A DNA stretch of 40,943 nt from IMG/VR virus record IMGVR_UViG_3300044259_000093, positions 1-40,943 of that record; one strand, written 5' to 3'. The position numbers and the translations under genes are program-made. The notes below the pieces were generated by a model. The model worked only from the letters and a program-made list of their open reading frames with translations, ran no database searches and was not told where the DNA came from. This document shows, piece after piece, positions 10,456 to 15,989 of the stretch; positions within the stretch are counted from its first letter, which is position 1; the number at the start of each line of letters is the position of its first letter. This DNA comes from a virus. Taxonomy: Duplodnaviria > Caudoviricetes.

Positions 10456-10825
10456 AGCCGGATCGTTCGGCGCCCGCGCCTGCCGCGCGCTGCGGGTCCG
10501 GCTGCTCACCCACGGCCGCGAGTCGCTGCCGCCGTCCTTCGCCGCGTCGAACTGGATTGTGCAGCGCATCCTGGCGACGCCGGTGTGGGCCGACTTCGAC
10601 GAGATCCGCAAGGTGTACGCCCAGGCCGAGCGCTTGAGCATCGCCACCGGCGTGCTGCACAACGTCGATCACGTCATACCGTTGAACCACCCGCGCGTGT
10701 GCGGCTTGCACGTCGCGGCGAACTTGCGGGCCATACCCGCGAAACCGAATATGTCGAAATCTAACCACTGGTGCCCGGAGCAACTGGAGCTGTTCACGGT
10801 GCCCGAACAATTGAGGTTGCTGTGA
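10442..10825 (+). CDS. HNH endonuclease
   Basis: ATPVWAD...HNVDHVIPL...VCGLHVAANLRAIPAKPNMSKSN. Confidence 0.85.
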   Translation: MQKRKAGSFGARACRALRVRLLTHGRESLPPSFAASNWIVQRILATPVWADFDEIRKVYAQAERLSIATGVLHNVDHVIPLNHPRVCGLHVAANLRAIPAKPNMSKSNHWCPEQLELFTVPEQLRLL

Positions 10826-11856
10826 GCGCCTACTACAACGAGATTGACCCCTACGCAGCGGAGTGGCTGCAAAACCTGATCCTGCTGGGCGTCATCGCGC
10901 CCGGCGATGTTGACACAAGGAGTATTGTCGATGTTCGACCCGATGACCTGCGCGGATACACCCAATGCCACTTCTTCGCCGGAATCGGCGTGTGGTCCTA
11001 CGCTTTACGACTTGCTGGTTGGTCCGACGATCGAGCTATCTGGACAGCCAGTTGCCCGTGCCAGCCTTTCAGCGCGGCAGGTGCAGGAGGCGGGTTCGCT
11101 GACGAGCGGCACCTTTGGCCGTTCTTTCACCACCTCGTCGCAGAGTGCCGCCCTGCAGTCCTTGCTGGAGAGCAGGTTGCAAGCAAAGACGCGGACCCTT
11201 GGCTCGACCTTGTACAAGATGACCTGGAAGCCCTGGATTATGCCTTCGGGGCGGTCGCGTTCCCGTCTGCGGGCGTCGGTGCTCCGCACATCCGGGACCG
11301 AACTTACTGGACCGCACACCGGGTGGCCGACGCCGAAAGCGTGCGACGTCAAAGGCAACGTGTACGAACAGGCGGAGGACTGCCGGCGTTCGGAACTGCG
11401 GATATCGGCGGCGCTGGCGGGCTGGGTCACGCCCACCACCACCAGGGACTGGAAGGATTCGGGCGCGGACATCAAGCCCAGGGCGGACGGGTCGGAGCGG
11501 TTCGACCAGCTGCCGCGCCAGGCGAATCTGGCAGGCTGGCCGACACCCAGTGCGCACGAGTTCGCGGGCAATCCGGGAGTGAGCATAGCGCGCAAGCAGG
11601 CCCTCGGGATCGGCAACACGTGCACGATTCTGTCGCAGGTGGCGACCCTGTGCGGCCCGGCCCGACTAACGGTTTCTGGCGTGATGCTGACTGGCTCGGA
11701 TGCCGGGATGGAAAGTGGCGGCCAGTTGAACCCGGCACATTCCCGCTGGCTCATGGGGCTGCCAGCCGAGTGGGACGCCTGCGCGCCTACGGCAACGCCA
11801 TCAACGCGCAAGCGGCCAAAGCCTTCTGCGAAATCCTGATGGAGTGCGCACCATGA
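10822..11856 (+). CDS. C5-cytosine DNA methyltransferase, main (alpha-like) subunit
   Basis: GTGA coupling; FFAGIG (motif I), SCPCQPFS (IV), GEQV (VI), HIRDR (VIII), YGNAI (X); motif IX absent from this frame. Confidence 0.88.
   Translation: MSAYYNEIDPYAAEWLQNLILLGVIAPGDVDTRSIVDVRPDDLRGYTQCHFFAGIGVWSYALRLAGWSDDRAIWTASCPCQPFSAAGAGGGFADERHLWPFFHHLVAECRPAVLAGEQVASKDADPWLDLVQDDLEALDYAFGAVAFPSAGVGAPHIRDRTYWTAHRVADAESVRRQRQRVRTGGGLPAFGTADIGGAGGLGHAHHHQGLEGFGRGHQAQGGRVGAVRPAAAPGESGRLADTQCARVRGQSGSEHSAQAGPRDRQHVHDSVAGGDPVRPGPTNGFWRDADWLGCRDGKWRPVEPGTFPLAHGAASRVGRLRAYGNAINAQAAKAFCEILMECAP
10931..11839 (+). CDS. nested +1-frame methyltransferase subunit (TRD-like WxTP repeats plus motif IX)
   Basis: AAGGAG SD 10917-10922, 8 nt before ATG; ends GQLNPAHSRWLMGLPAEW (motif IX-like). 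Confidence 0.75.
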   Translation: MFDPMTCADTPNATSSPESACGPTLYDLLVGPTIELSGQPVARASLSARQVQEAGSLTSGTFGRSFTTSSQSAALQSLLESRLQAKTRTLGSTLYKMTWKPWIMPSGRSRSRLRASVLRTSGTELTGPHTGWPTPKACDVKGNVYEQAEDCRRSELRISAALAGWVTPTTTRDWKDSGADIKPRADGSERFDQLPRQANLAGWPTPSAHEFAGNPGVSIARKQALGIGNTCTILSQVATLCGPARLTVSGVMLTGSDAGMESGGQLNPAHSRWLMGLPAEWDACAPTATPSTRKRPKPSAKS

Positions 11857-14800
11857 CAAAGGTCTGGCTTGACGACGAAACTTTCTCCCCCACGCCGATC
11901 ACCAACGGCACGCACCGCTACGCCGAGAAAGTCGAAATCCTGATCCGCGCGCTGGCGCTGGACGACGGCGATATCCTCGTGCGCGACCTGACACCGGGCG
12001 GCGCCGACTGGCTGCTGGCGGGTGATGACCTGCTGTCGGCGCCGGCCGATTACGTGGGCGAGATCGACGCGGCGCTGCACAGCAGCGATTGCGAGGTGTG
12101 GGCACATAATTCGCACTTCGACAGGACCGTCGAGCGCCACGCCGGTTTGAACATCGACCGCGCGCGCTGGCGCGACACGATGGTGCAGGCAATGGCCCAC
12201 GGCCTGCCGGGCAAACTGGCCGAGCTGTGCGACGTGCTCAAGCTACCCACCGACCAGGCCAAGGACAAGGCCGGCAAAGCGCTGATCCAACTCTTTTGCA
12301 AACCTGTCCCCTTCAAGTTCCGCAAGCACGACGCGCTGCTGGAACCCAAGAAGGATTGGCAGGCGGCGAAGGCCGCCGCCGAAGCGCAGTGGGCCGGCCG
12401 CGCCACGCGCGAGACGCACCCGGCCGAGTGGCGCCAGTTCCTGCTGTACGCCGGCCGGGACATCGAGGCCACGCGCGCGGCCCACAAGAAAATGCCGATG
12501 TGGAATTACCGCGACGCCGAGCTGGCACTATGGCACCTCGACCAGCAGATCAACGACCGCGGCGTGTGCATTGACGTGGAACTGGCCGAGTGCGCGGTGA
12601 ACGCCGTCGACGCCGCCCAGGTGGTGCTCAAGGAGCGCACCCAGGAGATGACCGGCTACAACCCGGAGACGGGCGAGGGCGTGGAGTCGGCCACCAAGCG
12701 CGACAAGCTGCTGGAATACCTGCTGATGGAGTACGGCGTGGACCTGCCCGATATGCAGAAGGCGACGCTGGAGCGGCGCATTGCCGACCCCGACCTGCCG
12801 GAGGGCTTGAAGGAACTGCTACGCGTCCGGTTGCAGGCTTCCACCACCAGCACCAGCAAGTATCGCACGCTGATCAAGGGGGTGTCGTCGGACGGCCGCC
12901 TGCGCGGGCTGCTGCAGTTCTGCGGCGCCAGTCGCACCGGGCGGTGGGCCGGTCGCTTATGGCAGCCGCAGAATCTTCCAAGGCCAACCCTCAAGCAGTC
13001 GGTGATCGACGCCGGTATCGAAGCGCTCAAGGCCGGCTGCGCTGATCTGATGTTCGAGAACGTCATGGAGCTGACCAGCAGCGCGATCCGGGGCTGTGTG
13101 GTGGCGCCGCCCGGCAAGCAACTGGTGGTGGCCGACTTGTCCAACATCGAGGGGCGGGTGCTGGCTTGGCTGGCCGGCGAGCGCTGGAAGCTTCGCGCGT
13201 TCGCCGCCTATGACGCGGGCACCGGCCACGACCTGTACGCGCTGGCCTATGCCAAGTCATTCGGCGTCTCGCCCGAATCGGTCATGGCCGACAAGAAGGC
13301 CGGCGGCAACCAGCGCCAGGTCGGCAAGGTGCAGGAGCTGGCACTGGGCTACGAGGGCGGCGTGGGGGCGTTTCTGACGTTCGCGGCGGCCTATAACATC
13401 GATCTGGAGGAACTGGCGCGCTCGGCCATCAAGTCGATCCCCGGCAACGTCATCGGCCAGGCAAAGATCATGCTGGAGTGGCACCGCAAGAAGTTCAAGC
13501 GCTGCCCGGCCGCCGCCTACGGCCTGTCCGAACAGGCGTGGCTGATGTGCGAGTCGTTCAAACTGGCATGGCGTGACGCGCACCCCAACGTGGTGCAGTT
13601 GTGGCGCGATCTGGACGCGGCGGTGCGCGCGGCAATCACCCAGCCCGGCAGCACCCACGAGGTCGGCTTCCTGCGCGTGCGCAAGGACGGCGCCTGGCTG
13701 CGGATCATCCTGCCATCGGGCCGGTGCCTGTGCTATCCCGGCGCGGCGCTGGTGCCGGAAAAGCAGCTGCGCGGCAAGAAGAAAGCCGAGTTGGAGCAGG
13801 CGCTGGCAGACGGCGGCGAGGTGGAGCAGGACAGCGGCCGCACGGTGATCACTTACATGGGCATCAACCAGTACAGCCGGAAGTGGGAACGGATCACAAC
13901 ATATGGCGGCAAATTGGCCGAGAACTGTCTGGCCGGCGGCACCGAAGTATTGACCCGCACCGGATGGCAGCCGATAGAGCAAGTACATAGCGGCCTTGAA
14001 GTTTGGGACGGCGAGGAATGGGTATCGCACGACGGTTGCGTTTATAAAGGTAATCAGGTAGTATTTCCAACTTACGGCGTCCACATGACGGCGGATCATT
14101 TAGTATTGACTACGGAGGGCTGGAAAGATGCATCATCGTGCGCGGGATTTGACAGGGCAGAAGTTAGGCTACCTGGAAGCCATCCGCTATATAGGCTCGG
14201 AGAACGGACGCCGATCTATGTGGGAGGTGAAGTGTATCTGCGGAACGACGAAGCCAATGGTGGCATCGGAGTTCGTGAAACAGCAGAAGCGCGGCATAGT
14301 GGCCTCTTGCGGGTGCATGCGGCGGGCAACGATCGGCGCGCGCAACACCACCCATGGCATGAGCAGCCATCCGGCCTTTGCGGTGTGGCGCAGCATGAAC
14401 GATCGGTGCCACCTGCCGACGCACCAGGCGTACCACAACTACGGCGCGCGGGGCATCGCTGTGTGCAAGCGTTGGCGCGAATCGTTCGAGAACTTTTGGG
14501 CCGACATGGGGTCGACGTACCGCACCGGGGTATCGATCGAGCGCAAGAACAACGCGCGCGGCTACAGCCCGTCGAACTGCCGGTGGCAGTCGCGGCGACG
14601 GCAAGCGAACAACACCCGGCGCTCGCTGCTTATCGAAACACCAATGGGCAAGATCACGGCGGCGCAGGCGGCACGCCGGTACGGGATCGGGCTGTCGACG
14701 CTGTACTGGCGGCTGCACAACGGGTGGTCAGTGGCGCGCGCGTTGAACCTGTCTACGACCTCGTGAACTGCGGCCCGCGCAATCGCTTCGTGGTGCGCGG

Positions 14801-15062
14801 CAGCGACGGCCGCGCGCTGATCGTCCACAACTGCACCCAGGCCGTGGCCCGCGATGTGATGGCCGAGAACATGCCGGAGTGCGAGGTGCAGGGCTACGAG
14901 ATCGTGCTGTCGGTCCACGACGAGCTGCTGACGGAGACCGACATCGATCTGGACCACGACGCGGACGGGCTGGCCGCGGTCCTCGCCACCGTGCCGCACT
15001 GGGCGCCGGGCCTGCCGCTGGCCGCCGCCGGGTTTGAGGCGCAGCGATACAAAAAAGATTGA
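11853..15062 (+). CDS. family A DNA polymerase, intein-containing precursor
   Basis: Exonuclease DDET, AHNSHFD, Y...D; RTGRWAG..QPQNLP; ADLSNIE; RQVGKVQELALGY; VHDE; ATGA coupling. Confidence 0.95.
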   Translation: MTKVWLDDETFSPTPITNGTHRYAEKVEILIRALALDDGDILVRDLTPGGADWLLAGDDLLSAPADYVGEIDAALHSSDCEVWAHNSHFDRTVERHAGLNIDRARWRDTMVQAMAHGLPGKLAELCDVLKLPTDQAKDKAGKALIQLFCKPVPFKFRKHDALLEPKKDWQAAKAAAEAQWAGRATRETHPAEWRQFLLYAGRDIEATRAAHKKMPMWNYRDAELALWHLDQQINDRGVCIDVELAECAVNAVDAAQVVLKERTQEMTGYNPETGEGVESATKRDKLLEYLLMEYGVDLPDMQKATLERRIADPDLPEGLKELLRVRLQASTTSTSKYRTLIKGVSSDGRLRGLLQFCGASRTGRWAGRLWQPQNLPRPTLKQSVIDAGIEALKAGCADLMFENVMELTSSAIRGCVVAPPGKQLVVADLSNIEGRVLAWLAGERWKLRAFAAYDAGTGHDLYALAYAKSFGVSPESVMADKKAGGNQRQVGKVQELALGYEGGVGAFLTFAAAYNIDLEELARSAIKSIPGNVIGQAKIMLEWHRKKFKRCPAAAYGLSEQAWLMCESFKLAWRDAHPNVVQLWRDLDAAVRAAITQPGSTHEVGFLRVRKDGAWLRIILPSGRCLCYPGAALVPEKQLRGKKKAELEQALADGGEVEQDSGRTVITYMGINQYSRKWERITTYGGKLAENCLAGGTEVLTRTGWQPIEQVHSGLEVWDGEEWVSHDGCVYKGNQVVFPTYGVHMTADHLVLTTEGWKDASSCAGFDRAEVRLPGSHPLYRLGERTPIYVGGEVYLRNDEANGGIGVRETAEARHSGLLRVHAAGNDRRAQHHPWHEQPSGLCGVAQHERSVPPADAPGVPQLRRAGHRCVQALARIVRELLGRHGVDVPHRGIDRAQEQRARLQPVELPVAVAATASEQHPALAAYRNTNGQDHGGAGGTPVRDRAVDAVLAAAQRVVSGARVEPVYDLVNCGPRNRFVVRGSDGRALIVHNCTQAVARDVMAENMPECEVQGYEIVLSVHDELLTETDIDLDHDADGLAAVLATVPHWAPGLPLAAAGFEAQRYKKD
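13926..14831 (+). mobile_element. intein (302 aa) in DNA polymerase
   Basis: KLAEN|CLAGGTEV (block A), MTADHLV (block B), VYDL (block F), IVHN|C (block G); removal restores GGKLAENCTQAVARD. Confidence 0.95.
14128..14766 (+). CDS. HNH homing-type endonuclease nested in the +1 frame of the intein
   Basis: GGAGGG SD 14114-14119; DLTGQKLG, W..KC.CG, SCGC, THGMS, W.SM..RC, YGARGI.VC.RW.SFENF..DMG, SIER.NN..GY.P.NCRW...Q.NN; C-terminal HTH-like region. Confidence 0.88.
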   Translation: MHHRARDLTGQKLGYLEAIRYIGSENGRRSMWEVKCICGTTKPMVASEFVKQQKRGIVASCGCMRRATIGARNTTHGMSSHPAFAVWRSMNDRCHLPTHQAYHNYGARGIAVCKRWRESFENFWADMGSTYRTGVSIERKNNARGYSPSNCRWQSRRRQANNTRRSLLIETPMGKITAAQAARRYGIGLSTLYWRLHNGWSVARALNLSTTS

Positions 15063-15087
15063 CACAAATTTTTACTTGTTATATAGT
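15059..15087 (+). promoter_or_regulatory. sigma70 promoter with operator in the spacer
   Basis: TTGACA-17 nt-TATAGT; CACAAATTTTTACTTGT at 15063-15079. Confidence 0.8.
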
Positions 15088-15133
15088 CTGTTCATGGGCG
15101 GCGCGTTGGGCGCTGCCCGAACCGGAGAAAACC

Positions 15134-15361
15134 ATGCTTACCTGGCTGTTTGGTACGAAGGAACAAAAATGCGCCTTGCGCGGGCATCCCGATGCTGTAG
15201 AAAACAGCCGTCGTTTTGTTCCAGAGCATCCTAAAAACGACGCGGATTTCGCTGTGGTGGAGATCGCGTACGAGTGCCCGCACTGCCACGCGCTGTTTTC
15301 TAAGACCCGGCTTTCTTTCCGGGGCGGTGTGCTCGCTTTCTTGCATCGCGGACGAGATTAA
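15134..15361 (+). CDS. hypothetical protein (75 aa, CPHC motif)
   Basis: GGAG SD; first gene after the promoter. Confidence 0.65.
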   Translation: MLTWLFGTKEQKCALRGHPDAVENSRRFVPEHPKNDADFAVVEIAYECPHCHALFSKTRLSFRGGVLAFLHRGRD

Positions 15362-15383
15362 CTTTACAAAACTGGAGAATAAA

Positions 15384-15989
15384 ATGGAAAAGAATATTGG
15401 TTACGCCCTGCTGATCACCGGTGTCCTGCTGGTCCTCTACGTGCTGGTCAGCAGCACCCGCAAGATGCGCAAGGCGCAGCGCGAACACGACCTGCTGCGC
15501 CAGAAAATCGCCGACAAACAGCGCGACGTGGAGGAAAGTATCAAGCGCGGCACCCGGATCGCGGACAAGGTAATCCCGCTGGGCGATCCGCGCCATCCGG
15601 CCAGCACCCGCCCGCCGCTGCGCCCGGTGGAAGAACGCGAAGCCGACATGCGCCGGCAGATGAAACGGGACGCGGATCTCGTGCTGCACCCCGACCTGCG
15701 CGGGCTTGAGCGAAAGATGGGCAAGCGCAAAGAATTCGCCGCGCCATACGGCCGCACACCAGCGCCAGCACCGCGCGCTGCCGAGCAGCGCCGCGACGAC
15801 AGCAACGACAGCAGCGACTACCTGACCAACCCGGCTAATCCGCTGTATCAAACGGTCTACCAGACGCACTACGATAGCAGCCCGGCGCCGTCCTGCGATT
15901 CGTCGAGCAGCTACAGCAGTTCCGATAGCGGCTCGTCGTCCTGCAGTTCGGACAGCGGCAGCAGCTCGTCCTCGTGCGGCTGCGATTGA
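15384..15989 (+). CDS. membrane-anchored protein with Ser/Asp-rich C-terminal tail
   Basis: GGAG SD; N-terminal TM segment, coiled coil, SSSYSSSDSGSSSCSSDSGSSSSSCGCD. Confidence 0.8.
   Translation: MEKNIGYALLITGVLLVLYVLVSSTRKMRKAQREHDLLRQKIADKQRDVEESIKRGTRIADKVIPLGDPRHPASTRPPLRPVEEREADMRRQMKRDADLVLHPDLRGLERKMGKRKEFAAPYGRTPAPAPRAAEQRRDDSNDSSDYLTNPANPLYQTVYQTHYDSSPAPSCDSSSSYSSSDSGSSSCSSDSGSSSSSCGCD

What the first reader, a model, noticed from the sequence alone, without database searches (positions are those of the whole stretch)
13926..14831. Intein whose homing endonuclease is a separate gene overprinted in the +1 frame
Seen: the polymerase frame stays open through a 302-aa intein with intact splicing blocks A, B, F and G and Cys+1. 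The ~200-aa segment between blocks B and F has no LAGLIDADG or HNH motif and reads like a shifted-frame by-product. The same DNA in the +1 frame (14128-14766) encodes a full 212-aa phage-type HNH endonuclease. Its SD (GGAGGG) is built from codons just after block B, its ATG is 8 nt downstream, and its TGA falls inside block F. Established: bifunctional inteins normally carry the endonuclease in frame within the excised protein. Inference: a free-standing HNH gene invaded a mini-intein out of frame, giving a dual-coding mobile element in which nuclease translation is uncoupled from splicing. It could be an intermediate in how inteins acquire endonucleases. I do not know of a described example.
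Basis: partly seen in the sequence, partly recalled or inferred. Interest (0 to 1): 0.95.

Follow-up and report, generated by a model that had tools for sequence, protein, structure and literature searches.

The report
Polymerase intein hiding out-of-frame nuclease gene
A phage DNA polymerase gene carries an intein (a likely self-splicing insert) whose middle, read one base over, is a second conserved gene for a predicted homing nuclease that is likely translated on its own; the layout is real and shared by many phages, and similar layouts are already published for other nuclease families.

Summary
Confirmed. The phage PolA gene (11853-15062) stays open through a 302-aa intein, and the +1 frame holds a 212-aa nuclease gene (14128-14766). 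It is no assembly artefact: 68 distinct inteins share the layout, including those of APSE-1 (nested P46, annotated HNH), Caulobacter RW and Shewanella SFCi1. Selection acts on the +1 frame (dN/dS 0.15 vs 1.77), while frame 0 avoids stops (0 vs about 400 expected). All 68 keep an ATG/GTG start, usually with a Shine-Dalgarno match. The nuclease has Arg where the catalytic His should be and an invariant Tyr; its best fold match is PacI. No contiguous intein with an in-frame nuclease was found (0 of 127). Related mini-inteins are deletions, and split and free-standing forms nest within the family, so this looks like a stable state, not a transient intermediate. The layout is published for endonuclease VII-like and LAGLIDADG nucleases (2025, 2026 preprints), but I found this lineage in no paper searched. 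The scan noted it before on other DNA (42 findings). Splicing, translation and cleavage are untested. New variant of a known kind.

The parts
11853..15062 (+). Phage family-A DNA polymerase precursor gene, 1069 aa (frame 0)
   Evidence: PHROG_17 E=2.5e-100; Pfam DNA_pol_A 3.3e-7; its ATG overlaps the upstream methyltransferase stop
13926..14831 (+). Intein, 302 aa, inserted at GGKLAEN|CTQ
   Evidence: absent from BPP-1, two APSE alleles and EcoM-606R2
13926..14180 (+). N-terminal splicing half (blocks A and B; C1, T55, H58)
   Evidence: C1, T55, H58 invariant in 78 of 78 aligned inteins; pLDDT 90-98 over residues 1-80; matches Mtu RecA and Neq inteins at E about 4e-6
14107..14109 (+). TGA closing the +1 frame just upstream of the nuclease start
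   Evidence: only 7-37 open codons precede the conserved D7 in all 68 family members
14114..14119 (+). Shine-Dalgarno-like GGAGGG formed by intein T-E-G codons, 8 nt before the ATG
   Evidence: SD match of 4 nt or more in 59 of 68 relatives vs 15% background
14128..14766 (+). Overprinted +1 gene, 212 aa: N-terminal beta domain with CxC...CxC, beta-beta-alpha-metal core, C-terminal HTH
   Evidence: PHROG_374 1.2e-52; pLDDT 92; dN/dS 0.15; weak HTH_psq match at 174-195
14350..14625 (+). Nuclease core (aa 75-166), His-less, PacI-like: E138, R139, Y146, N150, Q159, N162
   Evidence: VIA-align top hit PacI 3m7k, Z 6.6, rmsd 2.6, 77 aligned; R139 aligns with the I-HmuI His; conservation
14190..14735 (+). 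Frame-0 shadow linker of the intein: open but unconstrained, predicted disordered
   Evidence: pLDDT mostly under 60; frame-0 dN/dS 1.77 as a by-product of the overlap; 0 stops vs 402 expected family-wide
14739..14831 (+). C-terminal splicing half (blocks F and G; D278, H301, N302); the nuclease TGA overlaps block F
14832..14834 (+). Cys+1 codon; the four intein-less alleles examined have Val or Ile here

Best explanation
This is a likely mobile, self-splicing intein in a phage DNA polymerase gene whose predicted homing nuclease is a separate gene in the +1 frame, likely translated from its own internal start. Ribosomes reading frame 0 would make the 1069-aa precursor; the two compact splicing halves would fold around a disordered linker of about 190 aa, excise themselves and ligate a 767-aa polymerase with Cys at the junction (inferred from intact class-1 motifs and the fold). 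Other ribosomes would start at the GGAGGG/ATG built from intein codons and make the 212-aa nuclease. It is predicted to nick or cut intein-less polymerase alleles of co-infecting phages, with Tyr146 likely replacing the usual His base as in PacI, and recombinational repair would then copy the whole element. Shown: both frames, selection for protein sequence on +1, openness-only selection on frame 0, conserved start signals, and a patchy distribution over divergent hosts and sites. Inferred: splicing, translation, cleavage, target site and origin.
For: Family: 68 of 127 distinct contiguous inteins share this +1 nuclease, including those of APSE-1, Caulobacter RW and Shewanella SFCi1.

Selection: across 13 disjoint nearest pairs, dN/dS is 0.15 in +1 and 1.77 in frame 0, lower in +1 in 13 of 13 pairs; window vs L175 has +1 pN/pS of 0.143/0.486.

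Stops: frame 0 has 0 vs 402-520 expected over 67 inteins, while the third frame has 711 vs 578-676; 15 of 16 non-intein homologues have 2-28 stops in that frame. Among loci found with the nuclease as query, 28 of 29 with both intein halves are open in frame 0.

Initiation: 68 of 68 have ATG/GTG in the short open window vs 36% of 7017 background windows. An SD match of 4 nt or more occurs in 59 of 68 vs 15% background, and mRNA folding is weakest at the start (-7.4 vs -9.1 to -12.9 kcal/mol). When the start moves upstream, an H-E-V codon run supplies GAGGT (21 of 26, vs 3 of 40 with only the near start).

Folds: the intein matches HINT structures; the nuclease model has pLDDT 92 with PacI as top hit.

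Mobility: some pairs have 63-70% nuclease and 71-77% splicing-domain identity but only 32-38% extein identity; there are four sites in one PolA motif plus helicase-like hosts; intein-less alleles are 52-58% identical to this extein.
Against: No experiment or RNA data. The catalytic His is absent. Foldseek found no PDB match for the nuclease, the PacI match is only Z 6.6, within the range of common arrangements, and the I-HmuI profile match is weak (E=0.027); residue-level equivalence of Tyr146 to the PacI Tyr was not shown. No Pfam intein or HNH model matches. The window protein has Glu138 where 44 of 64 have Asp. The census is biased toward relatives of out-of-frame queries, the 67 inteins in the stop test were defined by an open frame 0, and members are not phylogenetically independent. 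No near-identical intein in a divergent extein was found for this very element, so its recent homing is not shown. One relative (L101) has a dead nuclease with internal stops.
Confidence: 0.78

Rival explanations
1. The nuclease is made by programmed +1 frameshifting as an N-extein/intein-N/nuclease fusion, not by its own initiation.
For: Two database proteins (P0123; P0124, cluster of 4) have that fused layout encoded in frame. The window has TGG AAA GAT just before the ATG.
Against: The +1 frame opens only 7-37 codons upstream. The residue before the start-forming codon is Lys in only 10 of 39, so no slippery codon is conserved. ATG/GTG is kept in 68 of 68 with SD and low structure.
Confidence: 0.07
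2. The +1 protein is expressed but is not a homing nuclease; it is a catalytically dead DNA-binding protein or has another phage role.
For: The catalytic His is replaced by Arg. His-less members of this fold that also lack the Tyr are considered inactive (PMC5714182). No strong structural hit.
Against: Tyr146, Arg139, Asn150 and Asn162 are invariant in 64 of 64, positions 138 and 159 are D/E/N and Q/N, and PacI uses Tyr. The element is patchily distributed across divergent exteins and sites, and mini-inteins delete it cleanly.
Confidence: 0.11
3. Origin rival: the element descends from a canonical in-frame HNH intein, or from a split 'fractured gene', through frameshifts, rather than from a free-standing gene entering a mini-intein.
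For: Related inteins occur as split forms around +1 or +2 nucleases. Monophyly of all intein-embedded nucleases plus L191 is not rejected (p-AU 0.59). Matched minis are secondary deletions. Dassa 2009 (PMC2677866) models such interconversion.
Against: 0 of 127 contiguous inteins have the nuclease in frame. The longer-protein search found only 2 fusions, both ending at the nuclease stop (weak by the tool's own warning). Group A nucleases sit on one side of a 98-99% branch with free-standing phage homologues, apart from the +2 group, though those homologues were picked by similarity to group A.
Confidence: 0.25
4. Assembly artefact or recent compensating frameshifts in an in-frame nuclease intein.
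For: Single metagenomic record; the two runs laid are contigs that may be its source.
Against: The same frame relation holds in 68 distinct inteins, including cultured phages; selection and codon-position signals follow the +1 frame.
Confidence: 0.01

Closest known systems
APSE phage DNA polymerase P45 intein with nested P46 (NC_000935.1 / AF157835.1)
   Same: Homologous element: intein 37% over 302 aa, +1 ORF 54% over 196 aa, start at the same intein position (GTG at nt 203), same PolA motif. RefSeq annotates nested P46 as 'HNH endonuclease'. Differential loss of the intein in APSE is noted in PMC7313666 (passages).
   Different: Insertion is 3 codons upstream (GGKS|CEN). P46 is annotated from an internal ATG (140 aa). 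The passages read do not link P46 to the intein or discuss overprinting.
Actinobacteriophage non-canonical inteins with an endonuclease VII-like gene in frame 3 (10.1101/2025.01.02.630785; sections 8 and 15 and passages read)
   Same: Contiguous phage intein with a same-strand out-of-frame beta-beta-alpha-metal nuclease; same hypothesis of invasion by a free-standing gene and possible later shift into frame.
   Different: Different nuclease family (EndoVII-like vs His-less PacI-like PHROG_374), frame +2 vs +1, actinophage hosts.
Cyanobacterial dnaX intein with out-of-frame LAGLIDADG (10.64898/2026.09.14.751524; whole held text read)
   Same: Disordered frame-0 linker, separate ORF with SD, purifying selection on the alternate frame, raised dN/dS in frame 0, coexisting empty/mini/full alleles.
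   Different: LAGLIDADG nuclease, bacterial chromosome, one site. Here a PacI-like nuclease at several sites and host genes, with split and free-standing derivatives.
ShiLan domain hidden HNH (PMC11855218; parts 1 and 3 of 6 and passages read)
   Same: Out-of-frame HNH-type gene inside an insertion that keeps the phage host frame open.
   Different: No splicing domain there, and the host is a methylase; here a full intein surrounds the nuclease.
Fractured genes: split intein plus intervening endonuclease gene (PMC2677866; passages read)
   Same: Separately translated nuclease between intein halves, its 3' end overlapping the C-half. Related inteins in my loci are split in this way (L027, L049, L085, L079).
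   Different: The window's intein is contiguous because frame 0 is kept open; their nucleases are Vsr-like and GIY-YIG.
PacI (His-Me finger group 20; PDB 3m7k) and I-HmuI (1u3e)
   Same: Top fold match for aa 75-166 is PacI; His absent, Tyr invariant. Weak profile match to the I-HmuI core.
   Different: PacI is a dimeric restriction enzyme; this protein has extra N-terminal beta/Cys and C-terminal HTH domains like a modular homing enzyme. Identity to PacI is 17%.

Membership tests
Class 1 intein | Cys/Ser1, block B TxxH, block F Asp, terminal His-Asn, Cys/Ser/Thr+1 (criteria recalled) | tested here: met
   C1, T55, H58, D278, N302 invariant in 78 of 78; H301 in at least 90%; Cys+1
Class 1 intein | HINT fold | tested here: met
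   Model halves at pLDDT over 90; top Foldseek hits are inteins (best E 7e-4); profile hits Mtu RecA intein at E 3.5e-6. No Pfam or NCBIfam intein model matched.
Class 1 intein | In-frame insertion absent from homologous alleles | tested here: met
Class 1 intein | Protein splicing activity | not testable with these tools
   needs a bench assay
Canonical bifunctional intein | Endonuclease in frame within the excised protein | tested here: not met
   nuclease only in +1; 0 of 127 in frame
Non-canonical intein with out-of-frame endonuclease gene | Open host frame plus an intact nuclease ORF in another frame between blocks B and F | tested here: met
Non-canonical intein with out-of-frame endonuclease gene | Purifying selection on the alternate frame | tested here: met
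Non-canonical intein with out-of-frame endonuclease gene | Separate translation of the nuclease | tested here: inconclusive
   conserved start, SD and low structure; no expression data
Canonical HNH homing endonuclease (I-HmuI type) | Catalytic His general base | tested here: not met
   Arg139 aligns with the I-HmuI His; R in 64 of 64
PacI-like His-less beta-beta-alpha-metal nuclease | Loop Tyr replacing His in a PacI-like fold | tested here: inconclusive
   Tyr146 invariant; PacI top hit but Z 6.6, rmsd 2.6, 77 aligned; no residue-level superposition; the PacI structure paper was not held
Homing endonuclease (function) | Cleaves the element-free allele and drives transfer | not testable with these tools
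   only indirect: patchy distribution and extein/intein discordance
Split intein / fractured gene | Host frame interrupted; C-half has its own start | tested here: not met
   frame 0 open in the window; met in relatives L027, L049, L085, L079

The most novel reading that the evidence does not exclude
Out-of-frame coding is the stable ground state of a large, overlooked phage intein lineage, not a rarity or a passing stage. A His-less, Tyr-dependent homing nuclease family keeps its own translation signals inside the intein, and single mutations switch the element among contiguous, split, mini and free-standing forms. That would make it the first Tyr-type beta-beta-alpha-metal homing enzyme tied to inteins, with a working model in cultured phages.
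Probability: 0.35. Interest if true: 0.7.

Novelty: new variant of a known kind. Interest (0 to 1): 0.45.

Why it matters
Papers from 2025-26 call out-of-frame intein endonucleases rare. Here at least 111 distinct contiguous inteins of one splicing-domain family carry them (68 of this +1 type, 39 in +2, 4 others), including cultured phages whose annotation misses or truncates the gene. The family holds full, mini, split and free-standing states side by side, so models of how inteins gain and lose nucleases become testable in a laboratory phage-host pair (Caulobacter RW). It is also a clean case of overlapping genes in which one frame is selected for sequence and the other only for staying open, and it may supply PacI-like programmable nucleases and very small inteins (110-116 aa).

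Tried and rejected
- Assembly artefact: rejected.
- Pfam and NCBIfam gave no intein or HNH hit for the window proteins, and Pfam gave no nuclease family for any of 64 members.
- Single-sequence PDB searches were uninformative. Foldseek found nothing for the nuclease model. A broader core profile reached only I-HmuI weakly (E=0.14) and not PacI.
- No RNA holder was listed, which says nothing about expression.
- A hairpin masking the SD, as reported for fractured-gene nucleases, was not found: mean z +0.49, 1 of 68 below -2.
- No second copy of the nuclease in this genome.
- A search for DNA encoding the in-frame fusion P0124 returned 9 loci; none of those I examined is a fusion. The fusions' genomic context (split allele, dead allele or error) remains unknown.
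- Independent acquisitions of the +1 and +2 nucleases could not be established (p-AU 0.59; quick tree, 35 of 139 rows). A 53-row test did not finish.
- The genome-contig scan gave only 2 loci.
- P46 in PMC8579659 is a different gene; PMC4033830 was irrelevant; the PMC8425127 passages on Jerseyvirus mention inteins but no nested gene.
- Frame-0 dN/dS above 1 is treated as an overlap by-product, not positive selection.
- No complex prediction, atlas search or representatives search was run.
Full report
Observation. The window is a virus record of 40,943 bases, 93% complete by the tool's estimate, with terminase, portal, capsid, tape-measure, primase, helicase and polymerase genes. The family-A polymerase ORF 11853-15062 (1069 aa) is open through a 302-aa insert at GGKLAEN|CTQ, 13926-14831, with C1, T55xxH58, D278, H301-N302 and Cys+1. 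The +1 frame holds a 212-aa ORF, 14128-14766, matching PHROG_374 at E=1.2e-52. GGAGGG lies 8 nt before its ATG, a TGA closes the +1 frame at 14107-14109, and its stop falls in block F. Contigs from two runs, which may be the source of this DNA, span 13000-15500 without differences. A low-depth relative in one run differs at 17 positions, 15 of them third positions of the +1 frame.

The intein. AlphaFold gives block pLDDT of 90-98 for residues 1-80 and 95-98 for 271-302, and mostly 40-57 between them. Foldseek's top hits are inteins (best E 7e-4), and a profile of 78 aligned inteins matches Mtu RecA and Neq inteins at E about 4e-6; Pfam and NCBIfam intein models do not match. The insert is absent from four homologous alleles examined, 52-58% identical to this extein, which have Val or Ile where the occupied allele has Cys+1. 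Splicing is inferred, not shown.

The family. A protein search found 238 intein-bearing relatives (120 listed). DNA came from five collection scans (10, 80 of 235, 80 of 86, 2 and 37 loci) plus named phages. Of 199 intein starts, 171 had an in-frame C-terminus, collapsing to 127 distinct inteins at 97% identity; I added one (L014) and corrected one end (L115) by hand. These are 68 with this +1 nuclease (group A), 39 with a more distant one in +2 (including Salmonella phage LP31), 4 with another in +1, and 16 short forms; none has a nuclease match in frame 0 or antisense. The other 28 starts were set aside: those I viewed were split inteins, truncated contigs, ambiguous sequence, a one-stop allele or pattern failures (output partly cut). 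The sample is biased by out-of-frame queries. Group A sits at four positions in one PolA motif (35, 11, 8 and 7 inteins), in 6 helicase-like hosts (label inferred from flanks) and 1 other. It includes APSE-1, Caulobacter RW and Shewanella SFCi1. RefSeq annotates a truncated APSE-1 version, P46, as an HNH endonuclease nested in the polymerase; the full ORF is 54% identical to ours.

Selection. I used 67 group A inteins (L101 dropped for internal stops in its nuclease). In 13 disjoint nearest pairs, dN/dS is 0.15 in +1, 1.77 in frame 0 over the same DNA, and 0.13 in the intein N-terminus; +1 is lower in 13 of 13 pairs. Frame 0 has 0 stops against 402 (codon shuffle) or 520 (GC3 model) expected, whereas the third frame has 711 against 676 or 578. 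For the window alone P is only 0.063 or 0.025. These 67 were defined as open, so a fairer test uses loci found with the nuclease as query: 28 of 29 with both intein halves are open, the exception having an ambiguous base. 15 of 16 non-intein homologues have 2-28 stops in that frame.

Translation. All 68 have ATG or GTG in the short open stretch before the conserved core, against 36% of 7017 background windows. 59 of 68 have an SD match of 4 nt or more against 15% of 643 background starts, although taking the best start per gene favours the former; folding energy is weakest at the start. Lineages that start further upstream mostly have H-E-V in block B, giving GAGGT (21 of 26 vs 3 of 40; not independent events). 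No slippery codon is conserved. Independent initiation is therefore likely, but there are no expression data.

The nuclease. The model has pLDDT 92. Arg139 aligns with the I-HmuI catalytic His (weak match, E=0.027); R139, Y146, N150 and N162 are invariant in 64 of 64. Foldseek found nothing; VIA-align ranks PacI first (Z 6.6, rmsd 2.6, 77 aligned, residues 75-166), a middling score. Reviews state that PacI uses Tyr in place of His (PMC5714182, PMC3384342, PMC4081073; passages). I read this as a likely active PacI-like homing enzyme. Mobility is supported by pairs with 63-70% nuclease identity and 32-38% extein identity, but recent homing of this exact element is not shown.

Origin and fate. 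Closely matched minis are deletions: L100 is 98% identical to L112 at both ends and keeps both ends of the nuclease ORF. A free-standing gene just after an intein-less polymerase (L191) and a split intein (L079) nest inside group A (96% branch; p-AU about 0.03 for excluding them, groups named after seeing the tree). Related inteins at another PolA site are split around a +1 nuclease. A longer-protein search (945 candidates) found only two in-frame fusions, both ending at the nuclease stop without the intein C-half. One origin of all embedded nucleases is not rejected (p-AU 0.59). So invasion by a free-standing gene is plausible but unproven, and the layout looks like a stable state with several exits rather than a step toward a canonical intein.

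Comparison. The layout is in print: endonuclease VII-like genes in frame 3 of actinophage inteins (10.1101/2025.01.02.630785; sections 8 and 15 and passages), an out-of-frame LAGLIDADG in the dnaX intein with the same dN/dS test (10.64898/2026.09.14.751524; whole held text), the ShiLan hidden HNH (PMC11855218; parts 1 and 3 and passages) and fractured genes (PMC2677866; passages). Gorbalenya 1998 is known to me only as cited there. Seven searches found no paper describing this PolA/helicase lineage or its His-less nuclease; subscription journals and preprint supplements were not visible and may bear on this. The scan noted the layout in 42 findings on other DNA; these are unchecked notes and were not used as support.

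Verdict. Real, conserved and likely functional; a new variant of a known kind; interest 0.45.

Noticed in passing
window 10771-11856 and 10907-11839 (+): A second dual-coding region just upstream of the polymerase: a 361-aa C5 methyltransferase (PHROG_363, E 3e-83) and a 310-aa ORF in its +1 frame that also hits methyltransferase families (PHROG_31772, PHROG_1008). It resembles M.EcoHK31I, whose beta chain with motif IX is encoded in an alternate frame (PMC2836561, passages).
   Followed up: partly
L014:2501-3397 (Salmonella phage LP31), L010, L053-L092 and others: Sister group of 39 inteins, mostly in PolA motif B (label recalled), with the nuclease in +2. In 36 of 39 the ORF is open from intein nt 93 or earlier with ATG/GTG there, so it overlaps block B itself. 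Not annotated in LP31.
   Followed up: partly
L117:2930-3259; L123:2202-2549: Very small mini-inteins (110 and 116 aa) with intact end motifs; splicing untested.
   Followed up: no
L100:2482-3736: A mini-intein that lost its nested nuclease has an intact free-standing gene of the same nuclease type directly after the polymerase stop, suggesting collaborative homing.
   Followed up: no
L191:2300-3879: Free-standing group A nuclease directly downstream of an intein-less polymerase whose target motif reads GGKFTAEL instead of xEN, possibly self-immunity.
   Followed up: partly
L011 vs L219/L220 (APSE); window 14832-14834 vs L218/L221: Occupied alleles have Cys+1 where empty alleles have Ile or Val, and in APSE the -1 codon also differs, so junction codons appear to travel with the element.
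   Followed up: partly
L027:1287, L049:136, L057:1352, L085:2054, L145:1190, L163:1997 and L163:3403: Split inteins in PolA around a +1 nuclease; in four the C-half has its own ATG overlapping the nuclease end. L163:3403 carries a different, GIY-YIG-looking ORF (label by eye). Several genes hold two such inteins.
   Followed up: partly
P0123, P0124 (cluster of 4): Polymerase N-part, intein N-half and nuclease fused in one frame, ending at the nuclease stop; genomic context not retrieved.
   Followed up: partly
L204:3001-3444: A nuclease homologue with no intein match that has 0 stops in the -1 frame over 148 codons (7 expected); unexplained.
   Followed up: no
window 15216-15989 (+): ORF after the polymerase with a hydrophobic N-terminal stretch and a Ser-rich tail ending SCGCD; weak match to unknown PHROG_13684.
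   Followed up: no
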